From: a virus | Direction: 5' to 3' (one strand) | DNA: 23,789 nt | Virus genome (UHGV): UHGV-1460385 | In this document: piece by piece, positions 576 through 10,485 of the stretch | How the letters are laid out: each line of letters opens with the position of its first letter | Numbering within the stretch: the stretch's first letter is position 1 | Notes under the pieces: model-generated | What the model was told of the DNA's origin: nothing | The model's database searches: none | Seen by the model: only the letters and a program-made list of their open reading frames with translations | Translations under genes and position numbers: made by a program

Positions 576-3263
576 CTATTCCACAACATCATCTTCTATC
601 AATTCAGCCTTATTTAGTTGTTCCTTAAGCTTATTCCATGCAGAATCCTCAGGCATCTGTACTCGCACAGAAACGAATTGATTAGCAGGAATGTCGATCG
701 GGTCACCGTTCGAAACACCAGGGATGTCGTTACGTGCAAAAACGGGCGAGTTATCATGAGTGCGGTGAAACGTTTTCACCAACACAGATCCATCTTGGTT
801 AACAACATAATCCAGCCAGATGAGCGGCTGCTTGTTTCGGTCCTGCGGTATTTCAAATCCACCATCAATCCCCCCCCATGAAGCATCTGCATTCAGACCT
901 ACGCAACCCTCAATCAGATATTCACCCAATGCCAGCCGTGTGACGGTTACCCCATCTGATTCGCGATTTGTTTCACTACTACCGTCTGAGAAAATCTTCA
1001 CAACCGGAGAGGCTTTTTTGATGAAACCACTTGAATCGACGGTCGTGTTCAGCGACGACCATGCCTCAGCCCAGCCTGTGTTACCTGCGCGAATAGCATC
1101 GTCTGCGTAGCGGAAGAACAGTTTTGATGTTGTGGACATGAATATCTGCAACACACGGTTTTTTGCATATCCTGACTCCCATAATGCTCCGTTACCTGTT
1201 CCTTCTGGCTGCCAGTTTGTCACCCCACCTGCAGCTCCTATACTTACACCAGTAGACCAGTCTCCAGCAAATTCTGGAAGATTTAGTGAGTTAGGTGAGC
1301 GAATTGATACATCAACCAGACCAGGGGATCCGAGAATCGACATGCTGCGGGAGGACACCTTAGTAAAAGAGTTGTACCCGCCGTTTTTGGAAATCCTTCC
1401 TGTATAATTATTAGCCCTGTTAGTTCCATTAACTGTAATTTCCCAGGTATCGCCGTTGATGAAGTCGATCTGCAATAGGCAGAATGCTGGCAGCGTCATC
1501 TGTCCTGGCGCAGATGGCCCACCTTCAAACAGTGGCATATCCTGTTCAAGATATGTCACATATCTACCTGCATCTGTATTCCGCAAATAGTCACAAATAG
1601 CCTGTGCCGATGTAAATAGCGCAATACCATCAGCCGGGTTTACAGGGTGACGGCCAGCGTTAATCACCCTTCCGCGAGGGTTAAATAACTGTGATGAGGC
1701 ATTGGATAGCGGAGTCATGTCTACTGTTCCAGGTTCATTAGATGGACAGTTAGCGCGAATGATGTTTAAAGTCCTATAATTTGATCCGCCCCCATTGTCA
1801 TAGCGAATAGACTGTAGAAGATACAATTCCTCAGAGCCAGAAATATCACAAGACTGCACCCCCTCATTTTCAGTGGAGTAAACACTCTTCCCTGAATAAC
1901 TATCCCAGTATGTTTTGAAATCTGCAGGTGACAGCAGGTACTGACCTAATTCTGAACCATTAAGGCTGTACTCAATATAACCCTGCAACCCTGCGAAAGT
2001 ATTTCCAGATCCCGCCGTGGTAGATGCACCAATACCAGCAAATATCCGTTGAGAACCAAGAGCGACACCCTGCCGTTTTGGTTTACCGGCTCCGCGACCT
2101 CCAACATTTGCATCAACCGTAATAGTCCCCATTGGACTGTAAGATCCTTCTATAAGGCTGTTAATATCCAGTGTGTTAAAGATATTGGATACACCTGTCT
2201 CAACATCAAAAATTTTCGGCCAACCCATATCCGCATTTTCGTATATCAGGGTATTACCAAAGCCACTAAACTGATATCGCACTCCAAGGCGTGTTGATTC
2301 AGTGAAGTTTGTAATCTGCGTTTTATCAACCAGCGTACGCGGATCTTCGATAGGGTAAATTCTGATAGTGCGAGATGGGCTGTACGGCAGCAGGATGTAA
2401 CGCTGTCCTGCCACTCGGTAAACGTGGATGCCTTCTGGTGCACCAACGTTATTCGGAAAATGAAGACGTGTTACCAATGCTCCTGTTACCCAGTCATGCA
2501 CCGTAACCCATACCGATGCGGGGTCTAGCGTCTGCCAGCCGATGTATACCATTCCATCATTGCTGTCTATGTAAATCCCCTGAAATCCCATGGTCGTGTA
2601 ACCATACTGATCTTTAAGATCTGCGGTAATCTCATCGTCTATGATGCTGAATTCTAATTTCCAGTTCAGCGGCCTACGCGTACCACTGACATGCCTAGAA
2701 ATATGAGACAGGTAGCTTTTAACCCCGCCTGCGATAATGTATCTATGTTTGATCTCAGTAACAATTCCAGTTGCAACTGGAGTGCATTTATAGACGCCGC
2801 CGTTTATTCTAATAAAATTGGTTCCTGTTAGATTATCCCCAATGGCAACGTCTTTTCTACTATTCTTAAACGTCCCATTACCTAAGTCAGTAACAAGCAA
2901 TGCCCCTTCTACATATTTCAATGACTGATCAGGGTCATACTTCAGCACATTAGGAAAATAGAACTGCTGCGCACCATACGCATCATAAACAGCCATAGAG
3001 TGGCCTTGCACAGTTACGAACTTGGCAATCTGTCCGTTATATACCGGGTAACCAGCAGCGTTAATGATTATTGGTTGCGAAACAGGAACGTGAGAACCGT
3101 CTTCATTCTCCACATAGACCTGAATCTGGTTTTCTGGATTTACAGGATCAGTGTCAATTTTACCGATATAAATTTTGCCATTGGCTACGGCTTTAAAAGA
3201 ACGCGCCATAGTGAAGAGTTGCGAAGGCATCGATACGATCACATTGGCTGTAATGTCTCTCAT
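576..3263 (-). CDS. Tailspike / receptor-binding protein (895 aa): P22-type N-terminal head-binding domain fused to a large non-P22 C-terminal body
   Basis: Residues 1-110 ([40 protein letters not shown]...[12 protein letters not shown]...NVLKYDPDQ) closely match my recollection of the P22 gp9 head-binding domain. The remaining ~780 aa do not resemble the P22 endorhamnosidase body. Last gene of the late operon, after ant, as in P22. ATG at 3263 with GGAG 9 nt upstream; TAG stop at 576-578. Confidence 0.9.
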
Positions 3264-3385: not shown

Positions 3386-4315
3386 TTAAAGTTTAATTGA
3401 GTGGCACGCTCTATCACGTATCGCTGCGAATGAAGCTATCTCTTTAAGTGCCCAGCTTTGCTCAGCCATTAAATGGCGAAGTGCTTTTAGTTCAGCTCTT
3501 ACTGCTGAAACGTCATACCCCGCTTTTGTCAGAATATTGATTAGTTTATACGCCGGACTGCATTCAACGAGTGCGCTGCGGTCAAGAGCAACAGTATCAC
3601 CGCATTGCTGCCTGATAATGGCGTAAGGTGCATTTTCAGCAAACCATGAAATCGGGAAGTTAATATCCAGTTTTGGCGCTGGTAACTCTTCTTGTTTGCC
3701 AATGAACTCACCTTCAAGCGGAACGCGAGCAGCAAGTGACAGTGCTTCGGTAAACTGCTCCTCACTGATTTCTTTGTACGAACATCCAAAATGGGATTTC
3801 AGTGACGACCACATGGTGATCATCGCCTTAGCCTGTTTTTCTTTTGGCAGAGACTGACCGCGACTCATGACGAGTTGTTTAATGGCTTCCTGCTGTTCAG
3901 TGGTAATTTTACTCGGCAACGCCTTTTTAGCTTTGCGTGGGTTAACTACATGACCTTTAGTCCAGTACTCGTAGAGCACATCGTCACACTCTTCCTGATA
4001 CTGGATTACCTTGTCGCGGATTTCAGGGCGGACTTTGTTTGGACTGATGGTTTGCAGCCAGCCAGCAAGTTTGCGAAGTGCCAAACAAATAATCTCACGG
4101 CACTGTTCATCACCAGGAAGCTGCATTGTGATTTTCACAATGGAGGTTTTAAACCGTTGCTTTATTTTCGTAAACTGTGAAGCCCAATCCATACCCATAC
4201 CTTCAACGATAGGTTTCATTGGGGTGTACGGCTCACCGTTGTGATTGACGACATAAAGCTCTGCGCCGTGGAATGGTACATTGATAGTAGATACTGCTGT
4301 TGCTATACTTTTCAT
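3386..4315 (-). CDS. ant: Antirepressor Ant (P22_AR-type N- and C-terminal domains), 309 aa from ATG 4315
   Basis: Position immediately upstream of the tailspike and downstream of arc, as in P22 immI; size near P22 Ant (300 aa). N-terminal VPFHGAELYVVNHNGEPYTPMKPIVEGMGMDW...QLPGDEQ resembles the P22 antirepressor N-domain family as I recall it. The ORF-track start at 4381 is TTG; the first ATG (4315) has AGGAAA 7 nt upstream. Confidence 0.7.
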   Translation of the reverse strand: MKSIATAVSTINVPFHGAELYVVNHNGEPYTPMKPIVEGMGMDWASQFTKIKQRFKTSIVKITMQLPGDEQCREIICLALRKLAGWLQTISPNKVRPEIRDKVIQYQEECDDVLYEYWTKGHVVNPRKAKKALPSKITTEQQEAIKQLVMSRGQSLPKEKQAKAMITMWSSLKSHFGCSYKEISEEQFTEALSLAARVPLEGEFIGKQEELPAPKLDINFPISWFAENAPYAIIRQQCGDTVALDRSALVECSPAYKLINILTKAGYDVSAVRAELKALRHLMAEQSWALKEIASFAAIRDRACHSIKL

Positions 4316-4390
4316 GTCAATATTTCCTAAGACGATTTGTTGATACCGAAGCCCTGACTGTTCCAGCAGTTGGGGCTTCAACGTTTTTCC
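4316..4390 (+). ncRNA. sar: sar-type antisense RNA candidate (~73 nt) covering the ant ribosome-binding site
   Basis: Plus-strand promoter -35 TTGATA (4281-4286), 17-bp spacer, -10 TATACT (4304-4309) with TGc extension. Predicted start near 4316, directly opposite the ant start codon. Ends at a long hairpin (GAAGCCC..ACTG-ttccag-CAGT..GGGCTTC, 4348-4379) followed by ACGTTTTT. Matches the known P22 sar arrangement; transcript not demonstrated. Confidence 0.5.
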
Positions 4391-4647
4391 ACTTCATTTT
4401 GAATTTGCTTAAGTAGCATATTTGTCTCGTCAAGCCTCTTGTTAATACGGTCAAGGCTTTCTACTAAATCGTTATGTGCATGTGATACTTCGTAATTTGA
4501 GACTGATTTCTTTTCCTCTATCGTCTTTGTCAATCGTTCCCCTGATTGATACATATTGATTAGCGCTGTAAAAATCACAAGCAAGCAAACCACAATGATT
4601 GCGCCAGACAAAAATTGTAAAGAACGATCAAGCAATGACACCCTCAT
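4378..4647 (-). CDS. Hypothetical 89-aa protein with one N-terminal transmembrane helix and a charged coiled-coil tail, between arc and ant
   Basis: ATG at 4647 overlaps the arc stop (ATGA). Predicted TM segment LSGAIIVVCLLVIFTALI followed by a heptad-like charged region. No family recognised. Confidence 0.5.
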   Translation of the reverse strand: MRVSLLDRSLQFLSGAIIVVCLLVIFTALINMYQSGERLTKTIEEKKSVSNYEVSHAHNDLVESLDRINKRLDETNMLLKQIQNEVEKR

Positions 4648-4802
4648 ACCATTACCCCCTCCCTCTTCAGGCTGTCCAATACTCGCTTGTAAATCTCAGA
4701 GTTAACAGATCGCTCATTCTCTTTGGCTACCTTGCGCACCAAATCCAATACTTCTTTAGGCATCCGCAAATTAAACTGCGGCATTTTTCTTGCACCTTGC
4801 AT
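4644..4802 (-). CDS. arc: Arc repressor (ribbon-helix-helix), 52 aa; below the 60-aa cutoff so absent from the ORF track
   Basis: Translation by hand: MQGARKMPQFNLRMPKEVLDLVRKVAKENERSVNSEIYKRVLDSLKREGVMV. This matches the P22 Arc sequence as I recall it (MKGMSKMPQFNLRWPREVLDLVRKVAEENGRSVNSEIYQRVMESFKKEGRIGA). GGAG 5 nt upstream of the ATG; TGA stop at 4644-4646. Confidence 0.85.
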   Translation of the reverse strand: MQGARKMPQFNLRMPKEVLDLVRKVAKENERSVNSEIYKRVLDSLKREGVMV

Positions 4803-4818
4803 ACCCTCTCCCAATCAA

Positions 4819-4835
4819 TGAACCACCGTGGTTCA
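4819..4835. promoter_or_regulatory. Omnt-like palindromic operator TGAACCA-CCG-TGGTTCA
   Basis: Perfect 7-bp inverted repeat with 3-bp spacer between the divergent mnt and arc genes. Its core CCACCGTGG resembles the symmetric P22 mnt operator core (TCCACGGTGGA, from memory). Confidence 0.55.
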
Positions 4836-4836
4836 A

Positions 4837-4870
4837 TTGAGAATGTACTATCACCGTTATAGACTGTCAA
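4837..4870. promoter_or_regulatory. Overlapping divergent promoters: Pmnt-like (plus) and Pant-like (minus)
   Basis: Plus strand: -35 TTGAGA (4837-4842), 17 bp, -10 TAGACT (4860-4865). Minus strand: -35 TTGACA (4870-4865), 17 bp, -10 TACATT (4847-4842). The two share bases, and the Pant-like transcript would start inside the palindrome. Confidence 0.45.
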
Positions 4871-4889
4871 GAAAAAACATGGTGATAAA

Positions 4890-5144
4890 ATGTCCAGAGA
4901 AGACCCACAATTTAAGTTGCGCCTTCCAGCAGAGTTAAAAGCAAAGTTAGACCAAAGGGCAAAAATGAATGGTCGGTCTATCAATTCTGAACTAGTTCAG
5001 ATCGTACAGAAGGCGTTATCTGAACCATCACCGATTGCAGGCTATCGAGACGAAGCTGAACGCTTGGCTGATCAGCAAGCAGAGCAGTTCAAGACTGTTG
5101 TGTTTGAGACACTTAAAAAGATTTATGGCAAGGATGATAAATAA
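4890..5144 (+). CDS. mnt: Mnt repressor (Arc/MetJ-family ribbon-helix-helix), 84 aa
   Basis: MSREDPQFKLRLPAELKAKLDQRAKMNGRSINSELVQIVQKALSEPSPIAGYRDEAERLADQQ... is near-colinear with the P22 Mnt sequence as I recall it (ARDDPHFNFRMPMEVREKLKFRAEANGRSMNSELLQIVQDALSKPSPVTGYRNDAERLADEQ...). Divergent from arc-ant across an operator. Confidence 0.85.
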   Translation: MSREDPQFKLRLPAELKAKLDQRAKMNGRSINSELVQIVQKALSEPSPIAGYRDEAERLADQQAEQFKTVVFETLKKIYGKDDK

Positions 5145-5680
5145 TGCTGCACACAATTCATTTCTTATGCCCCGTTAACACCGCCACTGTTGGGCAACTT
5201 CAGAACCACTGTCTCACCGCATTATCTCAAGGCGCAACTGAATTAAATATCCATATATCAAGTCAGGGAGGGGAAACAGCCGCTGGCTTTACTGCGTATA
5301 ACTTTCTTAAGTCACTCCCTGTTACCGTTAGAACTCACAACATAAGCAATGTTGAATCCATAGCTAATATCGTTTTCCTGGCTGGCTCAGAACGTTTCGC
5401 AAACCCATTATCAAGATTCCTGTTACATCCTCTATTATGGTGCTTTGCCTCCCCAGCCGCCGACCATGCCAGATTGAGAGAGTACGGGAAATGCCTCGAT
5501 AACGATCTTGATCGCTTCGTTGAGACGTTCAATATCGACATCGGAACCCATATTAGGTGGGCATCCCTGATAGCAGACTCGACCATTTTGGATGCTAACA
5601 AGGCTCTTGAGCATGGCATAATTAATTCCATAAAAACTGCAAGGCTGGTATCCAATCAGGCAAACTGGTGGGTTGTTTGA
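5144..5680 (+). CDS. Truncated ClpP-family (S14-like) serine protease, 178 aa, translationally coupled to mnt
   Basis: Start ATG overlaps the mnt TAA (TAATG). By-eye alignment to E. coli ClpP: NIHISSQGGETAAG vs YINSPGGVITAG; SNVESIANIVFLAG vs GQAASMGAFLLTAG (Ser); RFLLHPL vs RVMIHQPL (His); ILDANKALEHGII vs FLSAPEAVEYGLV with an upstream Asp. Ser-His-Asp spacing matches. The ~25 N-terminal residues of ClpP are absent. Confidence 0.75.
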   Translation: MLHTIHFLCPVNTATVGQLQNHCLTALSQGATELNIHISSQGGETAAGFTAYNFLKSLPVTVRTHNISNVESIANIVFLAGSERFANPLSRFLLHPLLWCFASPAADHARLREYGKCLDNDLDRFVETFNIDIGTHIRWASLIADSTILDANKALEHGIINSIKTARLVSNQANWWVV

Positions 5681-5736: not shown

Positions 5737-5958
5737 TTAGTTATCAAAAAGTCCGTACGTTTCTTCTTCTTCAGGTGTAAGGGGAAGAATCTCTACTCTA
5801 TCTATAGATACCTTTTCAATGTACCCATGAGGTCTACTTAAAATTAAAGCTCTCTCATGCCACAGAACTCCAAGAATGTGATACCTCCCAGCATCGCCTT
5901 TTACCCTGGCTCTTCCTTTGATTCTTGGCGGCATAATGCCATATTTTTTCTTTGCCAT
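5737..5958 (-). CDS. Hypothetical 73-aa protein, last gene of the minus-strand antirepressor operon
   Basis: ATG at 5958 overlaps the upstream TAA (TAATG); basic N-terminus, acidic C-terminus; followed by the terminator at 5705-5730. No family recognised. Confidence 0.45.
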   Translation of the reverse strand: MAKKKYGIMPPRIKGRARVKGDAGRYHILGVLWHERALILSRPHGYIEKVSIDRVEILPLTPEEEETYGLFDN

Positions 5959-6686
5959 TATGCAACATTACTCCCATGAATCAGGTGTTGTAGAGCTTTA
6001 ACACCTTCCGCATTGTAGCGGAATGCTTCCACCTGTTTGCTGGAATGTGCAGATTTATCCAGGAAGAACTTCCCGTACTGCTCAGTTTTGAGGTTGTTTG
6101 CGTTAGCAATGCGACCAATCTTGTTGGCCGTTACTCCAAGCTGCTCTGCAACCTCCCCTGCTGAGTAGTAATGCTCTTCTATTGCTGGAAGAGGTATTGC
6201 ATTAAAACCAACGATCGGGTTGATTATGCTTGCTGCCGCAGTCTGCTTTGCTTCCGGCGCAAGATTTGGCATCAAATCGAACAGATTGGTAACAGCTTCA
6301 ACCGTCATTTTCAATGTTCGCGCCTGGCGATACTCAACAAGTCCACTCGACGATTTACCGCTTTTAATGTGCGCTTCTTGCATACTTTCAAGTTGGTCTA
6401 CAAGTGAGCGGCGAACAGCTTTAGATTCACGAGCAGCCACTCGAAGGGCTTGCTTAATTGACATAACAACTTTTTCAGAAGTTGTCTTGTTTGATTTTTG
6501 AACTACGAAAATTTCGTAGTGCTCACCTTCAAGTTCATCCTTAATGCGTGCAATAAAGTCGTTATTTCGGACTTCTTTTTCCCCGCACTGTCTACGAGCA
6601 TGATTGACCATCTCTAACAGGTACTGGCTATCAATGGTTTTATCCGTGACAACGGATCCGATGTTTGCTACATTCTTAAAAGTCAT
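5958..6686 (-). CDS. Rha-like N-domain plus KilA-C-like C-domain protein (antirepressor-family regulator), 242 aa from ATG 6686
   Basis: N-terminal TIDSQYLLEMVNHARRQCGEKEVRNNDFIARIKDEL...HYEIFVVQKS resembles the Rha family. C-terminal YSAGEVAEQLGVTANKIGRIANANNLKTEQYGKFFLDKS resembles KilA-C-type antirepressor C-domains. AAGGA 7 nt upstream of ATG 6686; the track start at 6737 is GTG and would run through a terminator hairpin. Confidence 0.65.
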   Translation of the reverse strand: MTFKNVANIGSVVTDKTIDSQYLLEMVNHARRQCGEKEVRNNDFIARIKDELEGEHYEIFVVQKSNKTTSEKVVMSIKQALRVAARESKAVRRSLVDQLESMQEAHIKSGKSSSGLVEYRQARTLKMTVEAVTNLFDLMPNLAPEAKQTAAASIINPIVGFNAIPLPAIEEHYYSAGEVAEQLGVTANKIGRIANANNLKTEQYGKFFLDKSAHSSKQVEAFRYNAEGVKALQHLIHGSNVA

Positions 6687-6724
6687 TAGGCATTCCTTAT
6701 GTGGTAGTAAGGGTGTGACATAGG

Positions 6725-6755
6725 CCGCCAGCAGCACACTGGCGGTTTTCTTTTT
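6725..6755 (+). terminator. Orphan plus-strand intrinsic terminator in the Bro-N / Rha-like intercistronic gap
   Basis: CCGCCAG-cagcaca-CTGGCGG followed by TTTTCTTTTT. Canonical geometry. There is no annotated plus-strand gene upstream, so it would terminate an antisense transcript. Confidence 0.6.
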
Positions 6756-6774
6756 GCGCAGTCCGGCGCACCAA

Positions 6775-7401
6775 TCAATGAATCCATTCCTCGCCGCGAA
6801 GTTTTGCCAGCATTGGCTGAGCGTTCTTTACGACAAAATTGTTGGTATCAAGATTCTTCATTTCACGAAGAAGTGATTTCTTGGTTTCTTCTGACATGTA
6901 GCGAGTCTCATATGCAATATCGTAAATCCTTCCTGAAAGCTCAGAACCAATTTGCTTCATTCCTGGGTAGATGTGTTTGCACATTTGTTGACTCTTCTCC
7001 ATCCACAATTGTAAGTAGCAGAGATTAACCAGTTCTTCGTCAGTAAACTGTTTTGCAATCGGTGAGCATTCTGCCTGCCGATCCAAAATATCCAGCACCC
7101 AGCGGCGGAACTCTTTGGCTACCGGAGTGCGAGCAAACATCGCGATTAGGTGGGCACCGCGTAGTGAGAAAACTCGCACTTTTTTGCGATAATTTCCTGA
7201 GGTACTCACTTCGAGTACCTGAGTCATTCCGGCGCTAAACTCATCGCTATACTTGTTATAAATCATTGTTACTGCACGACTATTTGCGTATTTAAGTGCA
7301 GATGCAATATTAGATGATGTAAACCAAACACCATGCATATCACGGGTGGGCACCAACTCAACTCCGTGGAAGTTGTAATCTGATTTTGCTACAATATTCA
7401 T
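6775..7401 (-). CDS. Bro-N domain antirepressor-like protein, 208 aa from ATG 7401
   Basis: NFHGVELVPTRDMHGVWFTSSNIASALKYANSRAVTMIYNKY...KKVRVFSLRGAHLIAMFARTPVAKEFRRWVLDIL fits the Bro-N prophage antirepressor pattern. AGGAAA 6 nt upstream of ATG 7401; the track start at 7506 is TTG. Confidence 0.8.
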   Translation of the reverse strand: MNIVAKSDYNFHGVELVPTRDMHGVWFTSSNIASALKYANSRAVTMIYNKYSDEFSAGMTQVLEVSTSGNYRKKVRVFSLRGAHLIAMFARTPVAKEFRRWVLDILDRQAECSPIAKQFTDEELVNLCYLQLWMEKSQQMCKHIYPGMKQIGSELSGRIYDIAYETRYMSEETKKSLLREMKNLDTNNFVVKNAQPMLAKLRGEEWIH

Positions 7402-7476
7402 GTTAGTTTCCTTGCATACGGTTACTGACATAGAGGCCCGGTTTGTGTTCGCGCACTGCCGGGCTTCACTATTTTT
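7402..7476 (+). ncRNA. Second sar-like antisense RNA candidate, opposite the Bro-N gene start
   Basis: Extended -10 TGcTACAAT at 7387-7395 on the plus strand, ending 3 nt before the complement of the Bro-N ATG (same geometry as at ant). Hairpin GCCCGG..CCGGGC (7436-7464) followed by U-rich TTCACTATTTTTATT. Weak -35, and the U-tract is interrupted. Confidence 0.35.
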
Positions 7477-7648
7477 ATTGGATGACAACATCGCCCTTTG
7501 CCTCAAGTTTCATCAATAACTCCATTCGATAAGCTATCTCTGCCTGAATTGACCTATGGCATCTTTTTGCTGATTCGCGGATATGTGAATCAACCTTTTC
7601 TGTAAAACGAACCTGACGCGGCTTGATGGAAGATATCTTTTCAGTCAT
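7475..7648 (-). CDS. Arc-like ribbon-helix-helix regulator, 57 aa; absent from the ORF track
   Basis: Translation by hand: MTEKISSIKPRQVRFTEKVDSHIRESAKRCHRSIQAEIAYRMELLMKLEAKGDVVIQ. Pattern of beta-strand (RQVRFTEKV) then two helices with RS-I-EI motif is typical of Arc/CopG. GGAG 6 nt upstream of ATG 7648; TAA at 7475-7477. Confidence 0.7.
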   Translation of the reverse strand: MTEKISSIKPRQVRFTEKVDSHIRESAKRCHRSIQAEIAYRMELLMKLEAKGDVVIQ

Positions 7649-7697
7649 TATGCACTCCTGTTTTTAAAAAACTCATAATCTCACTTTTTGTAGTTTG

Positions 7698-7726
7698 ATT
7701 ATTCACTCACACTCAGCATGAGTCAA
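7698..7726 (-). promoter_or_regulatory. Pant-like promoter for the Arc-like / Bro-N operon
   Basis: Minus strand -35 TTGACT (7726-7721), 17-bp spacer containing tandem CACTCA repeats, -10 AATAAT (7703-7698). Confidence 0.4.
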
Positions 7727-7747
7727 TGAATTTTTTATGGTGAACTA

Positions 7748-8389
7748 ATGAATTTTGACGATCAATTCCCATCAAGAGTATCTCTGGCAAGACAGTCCAG
7801 GGGTATGACGCAGGCGCAGTTGTCAAAATTAGCTGGTGTTGTTCAACGTCAAATAGCTGCATACGAGGGTGGTGAGGCTAAACCACGGCTTCGGGTATTG
7901 CAGGCATTAGCCAACGCATTAGGTACTACAGCTGAGTGGTTAGCTCTAGGTGAAGGTCAGGGTCCGGGAACAAAAAACGTCATGCCTGACGTTCTGGTAA
8001 AGCAAATACCAATCCTCAAACTAGATGAAGTTATGCATTACCTAAACACAGGTGAACATTCATCGTCTAGATTTCATCCGGCAATATACAATGTTGGTGA
8101 CTCTGCATTTGCATTGACTATTGAAGGTGAAGCTATGACTACAAGTTCAGGTATTAGCTTTCCCAGAGGATCGGTTGTCACGTTCAGCCCTCTAGTAAAA
8201 GCTAAAAGCAAAGATTATGTAATAGCATCATTGGATAAAGAGCAAATATTGAGCTTCAAACAGGTTTACATTGGTGAAATAGAGACAAACCTAGTATCCC
8301 TAAACCCAATGTATCCTAATATTCTTGTTAGAAATGAAGATGTTAGTATTTTGGCAACCGCAGTTTACCTTGAAATCCCGTTGCTTTGA
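7748..8389 (+). CDS. Lambda-CI/LexA-fold repressor (HTH plus S24-like C-domain) with Ala at the nucleophile position
   Basis: N-terminal Cro/C1-type HTH (MTQAQLSKLAGVVQRQIAAYEGGEAKP). C-domain aligns with lambda CI: FALTIEGEAM vs FWLDVQGDSM (Ser to Ala, codon GCT), LSFKQV vs ATFKKL (Lys kept), LNPMYPNI vs LNPQYPMI. Confidence 0.85.
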   Translation: MNFDDQFPSRVSLARQSRGMTQAQLSKLAGVVQRQIAAYEGGEAKPRLRVLQALANALGTTAEWLALGEGQGPGTKNVMPDVLVKQIPILKLDEVMHYLNTGEHSSSRFHPAIYNVGDSAFALTIEGEAMTTSSGISFPRGSVVTFSPLVKAKSKDYVIASLDKEQILSFKQVYIGEIETNLVSLNPMYPNILVRNEDVSILATAVYLEIPLL

Positions 8390-8449: not shown

Positions 8450-8638
8450 GTGAAGAAAAAATTTGTAAACGTTGCAAAGTGCGCAATTTTTATATTTTTT
8501 ATGACCTTTTACGGATTTAGTGCCGGAGAAGGTTTCGATCGTGATGCCAATGCATTCAGTTTCTTTTGTCTGTCTATAGTGGTCATAATTGTATGGGTGG
8601 AATTAAAGCAAACATTGTTTCATGTGCTAAGGAAATAA
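8450..8638 (+). CDS. Small two-helix membrane protein (62 aa) downstream of the CI-like repressor
   Basis: GTG start preceded by AAGGAGG at 5-nt spacing. Two hydrophobic segments (CAIFIFFMTFYGF and FSFFCLSIVVIIVWV). Same strand as the repressor, 60 bp downstream. Confidence 0.55.
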   Translation: MKKKFVNVAKCAIFIFFMTFYGFSAGEGFDRDANAFSFFCLSIVVIIVWVELKQTLFHVLRK

Positions 8639-8655
8639 CCATCCATGGCATTTAG

Positions 8656-10485
8656 TCACTGCTGTGTTGCCTCAGTGGCAAGCAGCGGTCTGATGGCATT
8701 TGCAGCGTTACTTAATGCTCTTTCATAGGCTGGCGTTCCTGCTTTGGTGTTTGCCAAACGTAAGAGAGCATTCCTTGCTGCTTTTGACTCATACAAGCGC
8801 ATCATTGCACCGAAACCAGCCTCAAGCCCCATTGATACGCCAAGAGTCGCAGTTGCGCCAATCGTCCTTATCCTGTTGGCTTGCGATTGTCCTGTCTGTG
8901 TTACTACATTTGCGGCGTCCGACCTTGCTGTTTGCTGTAGAACTTCATGAAGAGCATCAAGCTCTTTCATGTGTCTCCCACTGAATATCGTGTTATAGAT
9001 CTGACCGTCAGATTGCGACTTCAACTTATTTAACTCGGTAAGAAATTTTGTTGGCGAGTCTCCTGCTTTTTCTGCAATCTTGCTGATATAAGCAGCACGC
9101 ATAGCGTTCTTTCCATCTTCACTAAGAGCTGGCCATATCCTCTTAATATCTGATGGTTTTCTGCTGAATACAACACTGTTTATTAGCTCTGGAGTAAACT
9201 CTTTTTTAGCTTTGTTGAGATTATTCGCAATCCTTTTATTAAGAACCTTATTGAAGACGTTAGAGTAGTCAGAGTTTGCCTTGACGTATCTGGCGGCCTC
9301 TCCAGCCCCCAAATACCGCGCTGCGTTATTCCTCAAATCTGCCCCCATTGCCCTCTCCACGGTATCAGTTGCGGCTTTCGCGCTATTAGGAAAAACCATG
9401 GCATCTCCCTGAATACTTTCCCTCAAGGCTGACCGCAACTCTCTCAATAGACCAAAATCTATATCTGGTTTAGCAAGTTCTTCTCGCAAATCGGATAACC
9501 CGCGAATCAAATCCTTATTTGCCACTTTCCCAAGCCTATTAGCTCTGGTAAGTACGTTGTCGATAACCTTAATAGATTTTGATGTGTCAACTGGTGTGTC
9601 TCCCATTTTGGCTGTAATGTCTTCAATAACGCTTCCGGCCGAATCCTTCCTTGACTTCAGAGAACCATACAGATCGTCAACAACAACTGATGGGCTATAT
9701 TCACCATATTTCTCAAGCTGTTTTTTAACTAGCTGACTTCTTTTTGCATACTGCTCAGCTCGCTTTGAGCCTGTCCCGAGCAAAGCCCCCTCGGCATCCT
9801 GAGTTAGGCCGCGAGTGAAAGCATTTTTCGGCGGGATAACATCAGATGTCATTGGTGTCACGCCCATCGATTCTGAGGTGGCAATTTTTTTCGCTACTTC
9901 TGGCGCGATATCGCCTTTTATAGCCGTTATTCCACGCCCTATTCCCTTTGCTGCTGCGGAAAGAACACCCTGAGCAGCAAGGTTAACTCCGGCGTTTATG
10001 GCTGCATTTTGCGCGAAATCGCCTTTCTGGTTTGCGGCTTCTGCCAGTGATCCAATAGCCATGCTTCCTGCAGTTCCAACTCCTGGAACTAAATACCCGC
10101 CAATTGTTTCTCCAGCTTGCGCATAAGGGTCTGTTGGTCGATCTACTGGACGATAGACATCGTCCAAAACCTTGTGACCACCAAGCCCCTGGCTGATTGC
10201 ATTAATCAGACTTGCGCCACCCTGCAATACGTCAAATGGTATGTTTACCAGACCACGACCAGCCTGTTCTGCAATTTGCCCTGCACTTTGACCACCAGTG
10301 AGCCAATCGCCAGCTTGTTGCATCAATGATGGTTCTTCCTGTGTTGGTGCATTATTGGCCTGATTAACTGTTTGTTGCTGAACAGCCTGACCAGCAAAAT
10401 ACTCATCAATGGCGGTGCCAATATCTTCGGTGCTCGTACCATCAGGAAAGGTAAATGTCTTACCGTTTGCAGTTACTTTCATCAT
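8656..10485 (-). CDS. 16: Ejection (internal virion) protein gp16, 609 aa
   Basis: Same length as P22 gp16 and N-terminus [16 protein letters not shown] as I recall it; last of the three ejection-protein genes. ATGA overlap with gp20. Confidence 0.9.

What the first reader, a model, noticed from the sequence alone, without database searches (positions are those of the whole stretch)
7748..8389. CI-fold repressor with Ala in place of the autocleavage nucleophile
The 213-aa protein has a Cro/C1-type HTH and a C-domain that aligns well with the lambda CI / LexA S24 domain, including the catalytic Lys (LSFKQV) and the LNP.YP motif. At the Gly-Asp-Ser-Met nucleophile position it reads Gly-Glu-Ala-Met (GAA GCT ATG, 8128-8136). 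The Ala codon is one base away from Ser (TCT). Such a repressor should dimerise and bind DNA but could not undergo RecA-stimulated self-cleavage. This fits a secondary repressor that must stay insensitive to SOS, or a recent ind-minus-type mutation.
Basis: partly seen in the sequence, partly recalled or inferred. Interest (0 to 1): 0.6.

Follow-up and report, generated by a model that had tools for sequence, protein, structure and literature searches.

The report
Dead-protease CI-type repressor guarding an antirepressor
A second, lambda-CI-shaped repressor in a P22-like phage has lost both the catalytic serine and the cut site needed for SOS self-cleavage, and it most likely just keeps a neighbouring antirepressor operon switched off; this is an interesting variant of a known circuit rather than a new kind of system.

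Summary
ORF 7748..8389 (+) encodes a 213-aa HTH + Peptidase_S24 protein. Lys171 falls on Lys192.

The Ala is not a recent ind- mutation. Relatives at 72-92% identity with saturated synonymous divergence also carry Ala (GCT/GCA), and a Ser (TCT) relative nests among them. Among 68 family representatives, only 2 keep Ala-Gly, 15 have Ala, and the column changed at least 10 times.

In all 11 related loci examined, as in the window itself, the gene lies divergent from antirepressor gene(s), nearly always preceded by a small RHH-like gene. Here the cassette sits in the P22 "ant moron" between gene 16 and the tailspike, next to a canonical mnt-arc-ant set. Phage JEP4 encodes the identical protein plus a canonical, cleavage-competent C2 repressor.

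Best reading: an SOS-blind, Mnt-like maintenance repressor of an antirepressor operon, using the S24 domain only for self-association. This is a new variant of a known kind, of modest interest. No DNA binding, repression or cleavage was tested.

The parts
7748..8389 (+). Gene for the 213-aa HTH + S24-fold repressor (stop included). The start at 7748 is supported by the conserved MNFDD N-terminus. The upstream in-box ATG (7718) runs into TGA after 3 codons.
7787..7942 (+). Cro/C1-type HTH domain (residues 14-65). The recognition-helix region VVQRQIAAYEGGEAKPR is nearly invariant across the family.
   Evidence: Pfam HTH_3 E 9.3e-13; 434 repressor N-domain hits; invariant columns
8030..8035 (+). 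Val95-Met96 (GTT ATG) at the column of the lambda CI Ala111-Gly112 scissile bond: no cleavage site.
   Evidence: residues 92-101 are predicted helical
8069..8365 (+). Peptidase_S24-fold C-terminal domain (residues 108-206).
   Evidence: Pfam E 1.3e-12; Foldseek to 1f39/1kca, TM 0.82-0.84
8132..8134 (+). GCT = Ala129 at the Ser nucleophile column (lambda Ser149, LexA Ser119).
8258..8260 (+). AAA = Lys171 at the general-base column (lambda Lys192), retained.
7649..7747 (.). 99-bp divergent control region. The leftward promoter-like site has -35 TTGACT (7726-7721) and -10 AATAAT (7703-7698). The box ATGAGTCAATG (7718-7728), overlapping the -35, is invariant in the 8 closest loci, and its TGAGTCA core sits at -29/-30 of the ATG in 10 of the 12 sequences examined (window plus 11 loci). 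The dyad ACTCAGCATGAGT lies at 7711-7723. A left conserved box AAAACTCATAATCTCAC (7667-7684) forms an inverted repeat with the right box.
   Evidence: The operator assignment is inference.
7475..7648 (-). 57-aa first gene of the leftward operon, probably a ribbon-helix-helix protein (Arc analogue).
   Evidence: phrog_10182; sub-threshold Arc, ParD_like and CopG matches: Arc domain in 5 of 9 orthologues, best E 6.5e-5, and PDB CopG at E 0.046; conserved position in nearly all loci
6775..7401 (-). Antirepressor-type gene (Bro-N + P22_AR_C). The start is taken at the ATG used by PGAP in E. coli HS; the mechanical ORF extends to 7506.
   Evidence: Pfam P22_AR_C 4.6e-14 and Bro-N 2.2e-10; phrog_245 'anti-repressor Ant' 6e-66
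5958..6686 (-). Second antirepressor-family gene of the operon (annotated KilA in JEP4). The mechanical ORF extends to 6737.
   Evidence: phrog_1726 'anti-repressor' 3.1e-100, match from residue 18
5737..5958 (-). 73-aa last gene of the leftward operon, function unknown.
   Evidence: phrog_4977; also present in JEP4
8450..8638 (+). 62-aa hydrophobic ORF with an AAGGAGG ribosome-binding site, co-directional with the repressor. Possibly co-transcribed prophage cargo.
   Evidence: phrog_21338, function unknown

Best explanation
The gene encodes a catalytically dead homologue of lambda CI/LexA: a Cro/C1 HTH followed by an S24 fold. It has Ala in place of the Ser nucleophile and Val-Met in place of the Ala-Gly scissile bond. 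The S24 domain is kept only as a self-association (dimer or cooperativity) module. The protein is not the phage's immunity repressor. It is the maintenance repressor of a portable antirepressor cassette (small RHH protein, Bro-N/P22_AR_C antirepressor, second antirepressor-family protein, 73-aa protein). The cassette sits in the 'ant moron' slot of a P22-like phage, between gene 16 and the tailspike gene. In the prophage the protein would bind the 99-bp divergent region, probably at the conserved ATGAGTCAA/dyad box over the -35 of the leftward promoter, and keep the antirepressor operon silent. This is the job Mnt does for P22 ant. Because it cannot be cleaved with RecA*, that silence is uncoupled from SOS. 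Antirepressor is then made mainly as a transient burst on entry into a new cell, before the repressor and the Arc-like protein accumulate. Shown: fold, residues, synteny, age of the Ala, and the presence of a separate canonical C2 repressor in JEP4. Inferred: DNA binding site, repression, oligomerisation, non-cleavage in vitro and timing of expression.
For: Fold and columns. No cleavage site. Second repressor: JEP4 encodes the identical protein plus a C2-type repressor with SAG/GDSM/FKKL at immC. The E. coli HS prophage carrying the cassette is mitomycin-inducible (bioRxiv 10.64898/2026.05.19.726188), which fits induction through the primary repressor. Synteny: in all 11 related loci examined the gene is divergent from antirepressor gene(s), with a 56-67 aa gene between in nearly all. 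These loci span podovirus and siphovirus tail regions and 37-100% protein identity. Position: gp16-type gene 8656..10485 and tailspike 576..3263 flank the region. Promoter-like site for the leftward operon, with the invariant box over its -35. Purifying selection: aa identity 72-91% with saturated synonymous sites and dN 0.05-0.25. No LexA box at the promoter. Villafane et al. 2008 (PMC2629481) noted that the HS-1 ant moron must control its antirepressor differently from P22.
Against: No experiment bears on binding, repression or cleavage. The operator is not defined: the 13-bp dyad is clear only in the closest loci, and a dyad with up to 2 mismatches is not rare in the window (14 found versus 7 expected). 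The rightward promoter of the repressor gene was not found by the consensus scan. Most family members keep Ser and Lys despite lacking Ala-Gly, which a pure dimerisation-module reading does not explain. The immC region of this particular phage lies outside the window, so 'second repressor' rests on JEP4 and on the P0016 locus.
Confidence: 0.65

Rival explanations
1. Recent ind-minus-type point mutation (Ser TCT to Ala GCT) in an otherwise cleavable repressor, or a decaying pseudogene.
For: Ala and Ser codons differ by one base, and an 81%-identical relative (P0003) has Ser TCT.
Against: Ala is present in the window, JEP4, E. coli HS and other E. coli genomes, a Salmonella cluster of 62 sequences, and in P0002, P0004 and P0005 at 72-92% identity, with both GCT and GCA codons and saturated synonymous divergence. 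The cleavage site is absent in the Ser-bearing relatives too. The ORF is intact and under strong purifying selection.
Confidence: 0.03
2. It is the phage's primary immunity (C2/CI) repressor, made non-inducible, with induction depending on an antirepressor as in Gifsy phages.
For: It has CI architecture, and JEP4 annotates it as 'repressor protein C2'. Non-cleavable primary repressors inactivated by antirepressors are known (Lemire et al. 2011, PMC3121763).
Against: It lies in the late-operon 'ant moron', not beside cro/cII/replication genes. JEP4 has a canonical C2-cro-c1 immC region with a cleavage-competent repressor. The P0016 locus also has a separate Phage_CI_repr + S24 gene next to an antiterminator region. 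There is no LexA box on the adjacent antirepressor promoter.
Confidence: 0.04
3. The repressor is still removed by proteolysis, but in trans or through another route: cleavage by a Ser-bearing paralogue, by a host protease (Lon, ClpXP), or by the ClpP-related protein encoded 2 kb away. Alternatively it is inactivated by a partner binding the vestigial active-site cleft. The cassette would then respond to a non-SOS signal.
For: Lys171 is conserved in the Ala clade. 50 of 68 family members keep Ser and 49 keep Lys without an Ala-Gly site, hinting at some retained function of the pocket. A ClpP-related gene lies in the neighbouring mnt operon.
Against: There is no direct evidence. The nucleophile column toggles among small residues (S, A, G, T, D) at least 10 times, as expected if only size matters. 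The ClpP-like gene is absent from JEP4 and E. coli HS, which have the same cassette.
Confidence: 0.12
4. It mainly regulates something else, for example its own operon with the downstream 62-aa membrane protein (an exclusion or lysogenic-conversion function), or it acts as an activator. Its pairing with the antirepressor genes would then be incidental.
For: A co-directional 62-aa hydrophobic ORF with a strong RBS follows the gene, at the position where P22 carries sieA.
Against: The downstream gene differs or is missing in other loci, whereas the divergent RHH-antirepressor arrangement and the ATGAGTCAA box are conserved throughout.
Confidence: 0.1

Closest known systems
Phage P22 immI region (mnt - arc - ant; Susskind and Botstein; Sauer et al. 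1983; reviewed as the 'ant moron' in Villafane et al. 2008, PMC2629481)
   Same: Same genomic slot, between gene 16 and the tailspike gene. A maintenance repressor is transcribed divergently from an operon that begins with a small RHH-type protein and encodes an antirepressor. The maintenance repressor is SOS-independent. The window carries a canonical copy alongside: mnt 4890..5144, arc 4644..4814, ant 3386..4381.
   Different: The maintenance repressor is an HTH + S24-fold protein, not the RHH tetramer Mnt. The antirepressor is Bro-N + P22_AR_C rather than P22_AR_N type, and a second antirepressor-family gene follows. The small RHH matches Arc only below threshold. sar antisense RNA was not examined.
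Lambda CI / P22 C2 / 434 CI / LexA / UmuD (MEROPS family S24 self-cleaving proteins)
   Same: Domain architecture and fold. G-x-[S]-M, F-K and LNP-YP motif positions. Lys general base retained.
   Different: Ser nucleophile replaced by Ala. Ala-Gly replaced by Val-Met. The cleavage-loop region is predicted helical. The role is control of an accessory operon rather than immunity. It corresponds to a natural equivalent of the LexA S119A and cleavage-site Ind- laboratory mutants (PDB 1jhh, 1jhf appear among the fold hits).
Non-cleavable prophage repressors inactivated by antirepressors (Gifsy GfoR/GtgR with LexA-controlled GfoA/GtgA; Lemire et al. 2011, PMC3121763)
   Same: A repressor that is not removed by RecA-stimulated cleavage, in a circuit that involves an antirepressor.
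   Different: There the non-cleavable protein is the primary repressor and is the target of the antirepressor, whose gene is under LexA. Here the non-cleavable protein is the presumed regulator of the antirepressor genes, no LexA box is present, and a cleavable primary repressor coexists.

Membership tests
Peptidase S24 self-cleaving repressors (LexA/CI/UmuD) | S24 beta-fold C-terminal domain | tested here: met
   Pfam PF00717 47.9 bits versus cut-off 23.3; Foldseek to lambda CI C-domain, TM 0.84, rmsd 1.8 A
Peptidase S24 self-cleaving repressors (LexA/CI/UmuD) | Serine nucleophile (lambda Ser149 / LexA Ser119) | tested here: not met
   Ala129, GCT 8132-8134, in phmmer, MAFFT and structural alignments
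Peptidase S24 self-cleaving repressors (LexA/CI/UmuD) | Lysine general base (lambda Lys192 / LexA Lys156) | tested here: met
   Lys171, AAA 8258-8260
Peptidase S24 self-cleaving repressors (LexA/CI/UmuD) | Ala-Gly (or Cys-Gly) scissile bond in the linker | tested here: not met
   Val95-Met96 at the column; no AG or CG between residues 86 and 121
Peptidase S24 self-cleaving repressors (LexA/CI/UmuD) | RecA*- or alkali-stimulated self-cleavage | not testable with these tools
   Requires purified protein
Cro/C1-type HTH DNA-binding proteins | HTH_3 domain at the N-terminus | tested here: met
   PF01381 E 9.3e-13; 434 repressor N-domain E 4e-6
P22 immI-type antirepressor control module | Located between the gene 16 and gene 9 (tailspike) homologues of a P22-like late operon | tested here: met
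   Tailspike with Head_binding domain at 576..3263; 8656..10485 corresponds to the JEP4 'DNA transfer protein' (gene 16 type); the L014 equivalent has PF26808 Phage_P22_gp16
P22 immI-type antirepressor control module | Encodes an antirepressor | tested here: met
   Bro-N + P22_AR_C; phrog_245 and phrog_1726 anti-repressor. Activity not tested.
P22 immI-type antirepressor control module | Maintenance repressor is Mnt (RHH, PF11423) | tested here: not met
   The divergent gene is HTH + S24. True Mnt is a separate gene at 4890..5144.
P22 immI-type antirepressor control module | Arc-type RHH protein as first gene of the ant operon | tested here: inconclusive
   57-aa protein: Pfam Arc 16 bits (cut-off 20.4) and ParD_like 19.8 (cut-off 23); Arc matched in 5 of 9 orthologues, best E 6.5e-5; PDB CopG E 0.046
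P22 immI-type antirepressor control module | Repressor binds an operator overlapping the ant promoter | not testable with these tools
   Only a conserved box over a predicted -35
Gifsy-type non-cleavable primary repressor with LexA-controlled antirepressor | Is the primary immunity repressor, and the antirepressor gene carries a LexA box | tested here: not met
   A separate canonical C2 in JEP4; no LexA box within the module

The most novel reading that the evidence does not exclude
The antirepressor-guarding HTH-S24 family as a whole (conserved recognition helix, conserved ATGAGTCAA box) has abandoned RecA-type self-cleavage: 66 of 68 representatives lack Ala-Gly. Yet it mostly keeps the Ser-Lys dyad. 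The pocket may therefore have been repurposed, for trans-cleavage, cleavage at a non-canonical bond, or docking of a partner or signal. That would give lambdoid and P22-like phages an SOS-independent switch that fires antirepressors against resident prophage repressors. The Ala clade in this window would be the fully non-catalytic end state of that family.
Probability: 0.12. Interest if true: 0.6.

Novelty: new variant of a known kind. Interest (0 to 1): 0.3.

Why it matters
The cassette puts a different protein fold, a CI-type pseudo-protease, into the role that Mnt plays in the classic P22 immI circuit. It moves as a unit between podovirus and siphovirus late operons of enterobacteria and is present in full in 27 of 5,426 complete E. 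coli genomes. It is a caution for annotation and for induction prediction. PGAP names the protein 'LexA family transcriptional regulator' in some genomes, and JEP4 names it 'repressor protein C2'. An S24 domain is easily read as evidence of SOS inducibility. Here the S24-bearing gene is neither the immunity repressor nor cleavable. The cassette also offers a natural series (Ala-Gly/Ser/Lys, then no Ala-Gly, then Ala, then Asp-Pro-Ala...Arg) for studying how a self-cleaving switch decays into a plain oligomerisation domain. And phages with two tandem antirepressor modules, as in this window, are candidates for cross-talk between co-resident prophages.

Tried and rejected
1. I asked whether a Ser or Thr from the nearby TTSSG could fall on the nucleophile column. 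It cannot: four independent alignments fix G127-x-A129-M130.

2. I looked for an alternative Ala-Gly or Cys-Gly near the cleavage region and found none in the query. The AG dipeptides seen in some relatives lie in the 'DAGDSAF' stretch of the core, not at the cleavage loop.

3. I searched for LexA boxes at the module promoter. There are none, and the window total is below the chance expectation.

4. I tried to define the operator from the dyad ACTCAnnATGAGT. It is unique with 0 mismatches. But with up to 2 mismatches such sites are only marginally enriched (14 versus 7 expected), and the left half is not conserved in the more distant loci. The assignment stays open.

5. dN/dS could not be computed because dS was saturated in nearly all pairs. 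I reported the fraction of identical-aa codons that differ instead.

6. The consensus scan found no rightward promoter for the repressor gene.

7. Literature searches for a functional study of this cassette found only the 2008 diagram and remark on the E. coli HS prophage. The library excludes most subscription journals, so absence is not proof.

Full report
**Observation**

The ORF at 7748..8389 (+) exists and encodes 213 aa. Pfam places an HTH_3 domain at residues 14-65 and a Peptidase_S24 domain at residues 108-206, both well above the curated cut-offs.

phmmer against solved structures returns lambda repressor chains as the best hits. It aligns 'EGEAM' with lambda 'EGNSM', 'FKQ' with 'FKK' and 'LNPMYP' with 'LNPQYP'. 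MAFFT alignments that include lambda CI, P22 C2, 434 CI, LexA and UmuD give the same columns. For lambda the relevant segments match the PDB alignment.

An AlphaFold model built on the family alignment (pLDDT 86.5) has a C-domain that superposes on the lambda CI C-domain (1f39) with TM 0.84 and rmsd 1.8 A. Ala129 therefore sits at the nucleophile position and Lys171 at the general-base position.

GAA is 8129-8131, GCT is 8132-8134 and ATG is 8135-8137.

At the column of the lambda Ala111-Gly112 scissile bond the protein reads Val95-Met96 (8030-8035). No Ala-Gly or Cys-Gly occurs anywhere between the conserved 'IPIL' strand and the S24 core. In the model, residues 92-101 form a helix where lambda has the cleavage loop. 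On established knowledge of LexA and CI Ind- mutants, either defect alone should block self-cleavage.

**Is the Ala recent?**

No. The identical protein is encoded by the cultured phage JEP4 (Lederbergvirus, MT740315). The cassette occurs at 98.6-99.7% nucleotide identity in 27 complete E. coli genomes, including strain HS. The 99%-identical cluster P0001 holds 62 sequences, with a Salmonella name.

More distant relatives also carry Ala: P0002 (91%), P0004 (76%) and P0005 (72%), with GCA, GCA and GCT codons. P0003 (81%) has Ser TCT.

Between the window and P0002, nucleotide identity is only 76%, and 57% of codons for identical residues differ. Synonymous sites are saturated while dN is 0.05-0.07. 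The Ala state is therefore old and the protein is under strong purifying selection.

**Family view**

A profile search of 1.84 billion representatives found 126 proteins at E <= 1e-30. The 68 closest full-length ones share a nearly invariant recognition-helix region, VVQRQIAAYEGGEAKPR. Their state at the three catalytic columns is:

| Column | State among 68 representatives |
|---|---|
| Cleavage site | Ala-Gly in 2; other residues in 66 |
| Nucleophile | Ser 50, Ala 15, Gly/Thr/Asp 3 |
| General base | Lys 49, mostly Arg in the rest |

On a neighbour-joining tree the nucleophile column needs at least 10 changes. The Ser-bearing P0003 nests inside the Ala clade of the query. One subclade is fully degenerate (Asp-Pro-Ala-Met ... 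Arg-Gln).

Among more distant, ordinary CI-like hits, 33 of 70 have Ala-Gly. The Ser-to-Ala change is thus a recurrent, secondary step in a family that had largely given up canonical self-cleavage. The column seems to require only a small residue. Why Ser and Lys are nevertheless kept in most members is unexplained.

**Context**

The window is the late region of a P22-like phage. Terminase, portal, scaffold, coat and ejection-protein-sized ORFs lie on the minus strand. A gene-16-type gene is at 8656..10485, and a tailspike with a P22 head-binding domain is at 576..3263.

Between them lies the variable 'ant moron' described by Villafane et al. 2008 (PMC2629481). Here it holds two modules.

- **Canonical P22 set.** mnt is at 4890..5144 (Arc + Repressor_Mnt domains), arc at 4644..4814 and ant at 3386..4381 (P22_AR_N).
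- **The cassette under study.** The HTH-S24 gene is divergent from four genes:
  - a 57-aa gene (7475..7648);
  - a Bro-N + P22_AR_C antirepressor-type gene (6775..7401);
  - a second antirepressor-family gene (5958..6686, phrog_1726);
  - a 73-aa gene.

The 57-aa protein gives only sub-threshold but consistent ribbon-helix-helix matches (Arc, ParD-like, CopG).

**Conserved synteny**

Every homologue locus I fetched shows the HTH-S24 gene divergent from antirepressor gene(s). A small 56-67 aa gene precedes the antirepressor in nearly all of them. These loci are JEP4, E. coli HS, and the loci of P0002-P0007, P0016, P0020 and P0022.

The cassette sits either between gene 16 and the tailspike of P22-like phages, or among siphovirus tail genes next to the tape-measure or minor-tail genes. 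In the P0007 locus the small gene was not called, but it is visible in the DNA. The cassette is therefore a mobile unit.

**Control region**

The 99-bp intergenic region contains one promoter-like site, pointing left, with -35 TTGACT (7726-7721) and -10 AATAAT (7703-7698).

The sequence ATGAGTCAATG (7718-7728), which overlaps that -35, is invariant in the eight closest loci even though synonymous sites are saturated. Its TGAGTCA core lies at -29/-30 from the start codon in 10 of the 12 sequences examined, the window plus 11 loci.

In the closest loci it is the right half of a 13-bp dyad (ACTCAGCATGAGT, 7711-7723). It also forms a longer inverted repeat with a conserved left box at 7667-7684. 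That this is the operator is inference. No LexA box is present.

**Second repressor**

JEP4 has a standard immC region (C2, cro, c1). Its 216-aa repressor is nearly P22 C2 and has Ser-Ala-Gly, GDSM and FKKL. The P0016 locus likewise has a separate Phage_CI_repr + S24 gene beside an antiterminator gene. The E. coli HS prophage that carries the cassette amplifies after mitomycin C (bioRxiv 10.64898/2026.05.19.726188). The 213-aa protein is therefore an accessory repressor. The immC region of the present phage is outside the window.

**Mechanism proposed**

By analogy with P22 Mnt/Arc/Ant (established knowledge; Susskind, Sauer and colleagues, as cited in PMC2629481), I propose three steps.

- The HTH-S24 protein binds over the leftward promoter in the lysogen and keeps the antirepressor operon off.
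- Its S24 domain provides self-association only.
- Lacking both nucleophile and scissile bond, it is indifferent to RecA*. Antirepressor is then produced mainly as a burst on infection, before this repressor and the small RHH protein accumulate.

I put about 0.9 on 'cannot self-cleave', about 0.7 on 'represses the divergent antirepressor operon', and 0.65 on the whole picture. The rival readings, with my estimates, are:

| Rival reading | Estimate |
|---|---|
| Recent mutation | 0.03 |
| Primary immunity repressor | 0.04 |
| Proteolysis or partner binding by another route | 0.12 |
| Mainly regulates other cargo | 0.10 |

**Comparison and novelty**

The protein is a structural homologue but not a functional member of the S24 self-cleaving repressors, because two defining features were tested and not met. 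The cassette works like P22 immI. It is not a member in the strict sense: the maintenance repressor is not Mnt, and the Arc relationship is unproven.

It differs from the Gifsy-type arrangement (PMC3121763). There the non-cleavable protein is the primary repressor and the antirepressor gene is LexA-controlled.

The E. coli HS version was drawn in 2008, with the remark that its antirepressor must be controlled differently from P22. I found no functional study. The searchable library omits most subscription journals, so this absence is not proof.

I rate it a new variant of a known kind, interest about 0.3. A specialist would find it tidy rather than surprising. The family-wide retention of Ser-Lys without a cleavage site is the one loose end that could lead somewhere.

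Noticed in passing
window 5144..5680 (+): A 178-aa ClpP-related protein (Pfam CLP_protease E 2.2e-11; sub-threshold 'head maturation protease, ClpP-related') starts on the stop codon of mnt and looks co-transcribed with it. This is an odd cargo for the immI region of a P22-like phage. It is absent at this spot from JEP4 and E. coli HS.
   Followed up: partly
window 3386..5144 and 5737..8389: There are two tandem antirepressor modules in one 'ant moron'. One is a canonical mnt/arc/ant set. The other is the HTH-S24/RHH/Bro-N cassette. JEP4 and E. coli HS keep mnt but lack arc and ant.
   Followed up: partly
window 8450..8638 (+): A 62-aa strongly hydrophobic ORF with an AAGGAGG ribosome-binding site lies just downstream of the repressor gene, at the place where P22 carries sieA. 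It matches phrog_21338, of unknown function. E. coli HS has a different 212-aa gene here.
   Followed up: no
window 4378..4647 (-): An 89-aa ORF with a predicted membrane segment and a coiled-coil-like tail sits between arc and ant and overlaps the ant start. It matches phrog_27312, of unknown function.
   Followed up: no
family alignment (P0001-P0078); loci L002-L015: 66 of 68 representatives of the antirepressor-guarding HTH-S24 family lack Ala-Gly at the cleavage column, yet 50 keep Ser and 49 keep Lys. Members P0012-P0021 also carry a 50-70 aa C-terminal extension that looks coiled-coil-like. This is unexplained.
   Followed up: partly
L002 6001, L006 6001, L012 5001 versus window 7718: Gene callers start several orthologues at the ATG inside the invariant ATGAGTCAA box, giving an 'MSQ...' N-terminal extension. 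In the window that ATG meets TGA after three codons, so the box is regulatory DNA and the extensions are probably mis-calls. JEP4 instead annotates a start 72 nt too far downstream.
   Followed up: yes
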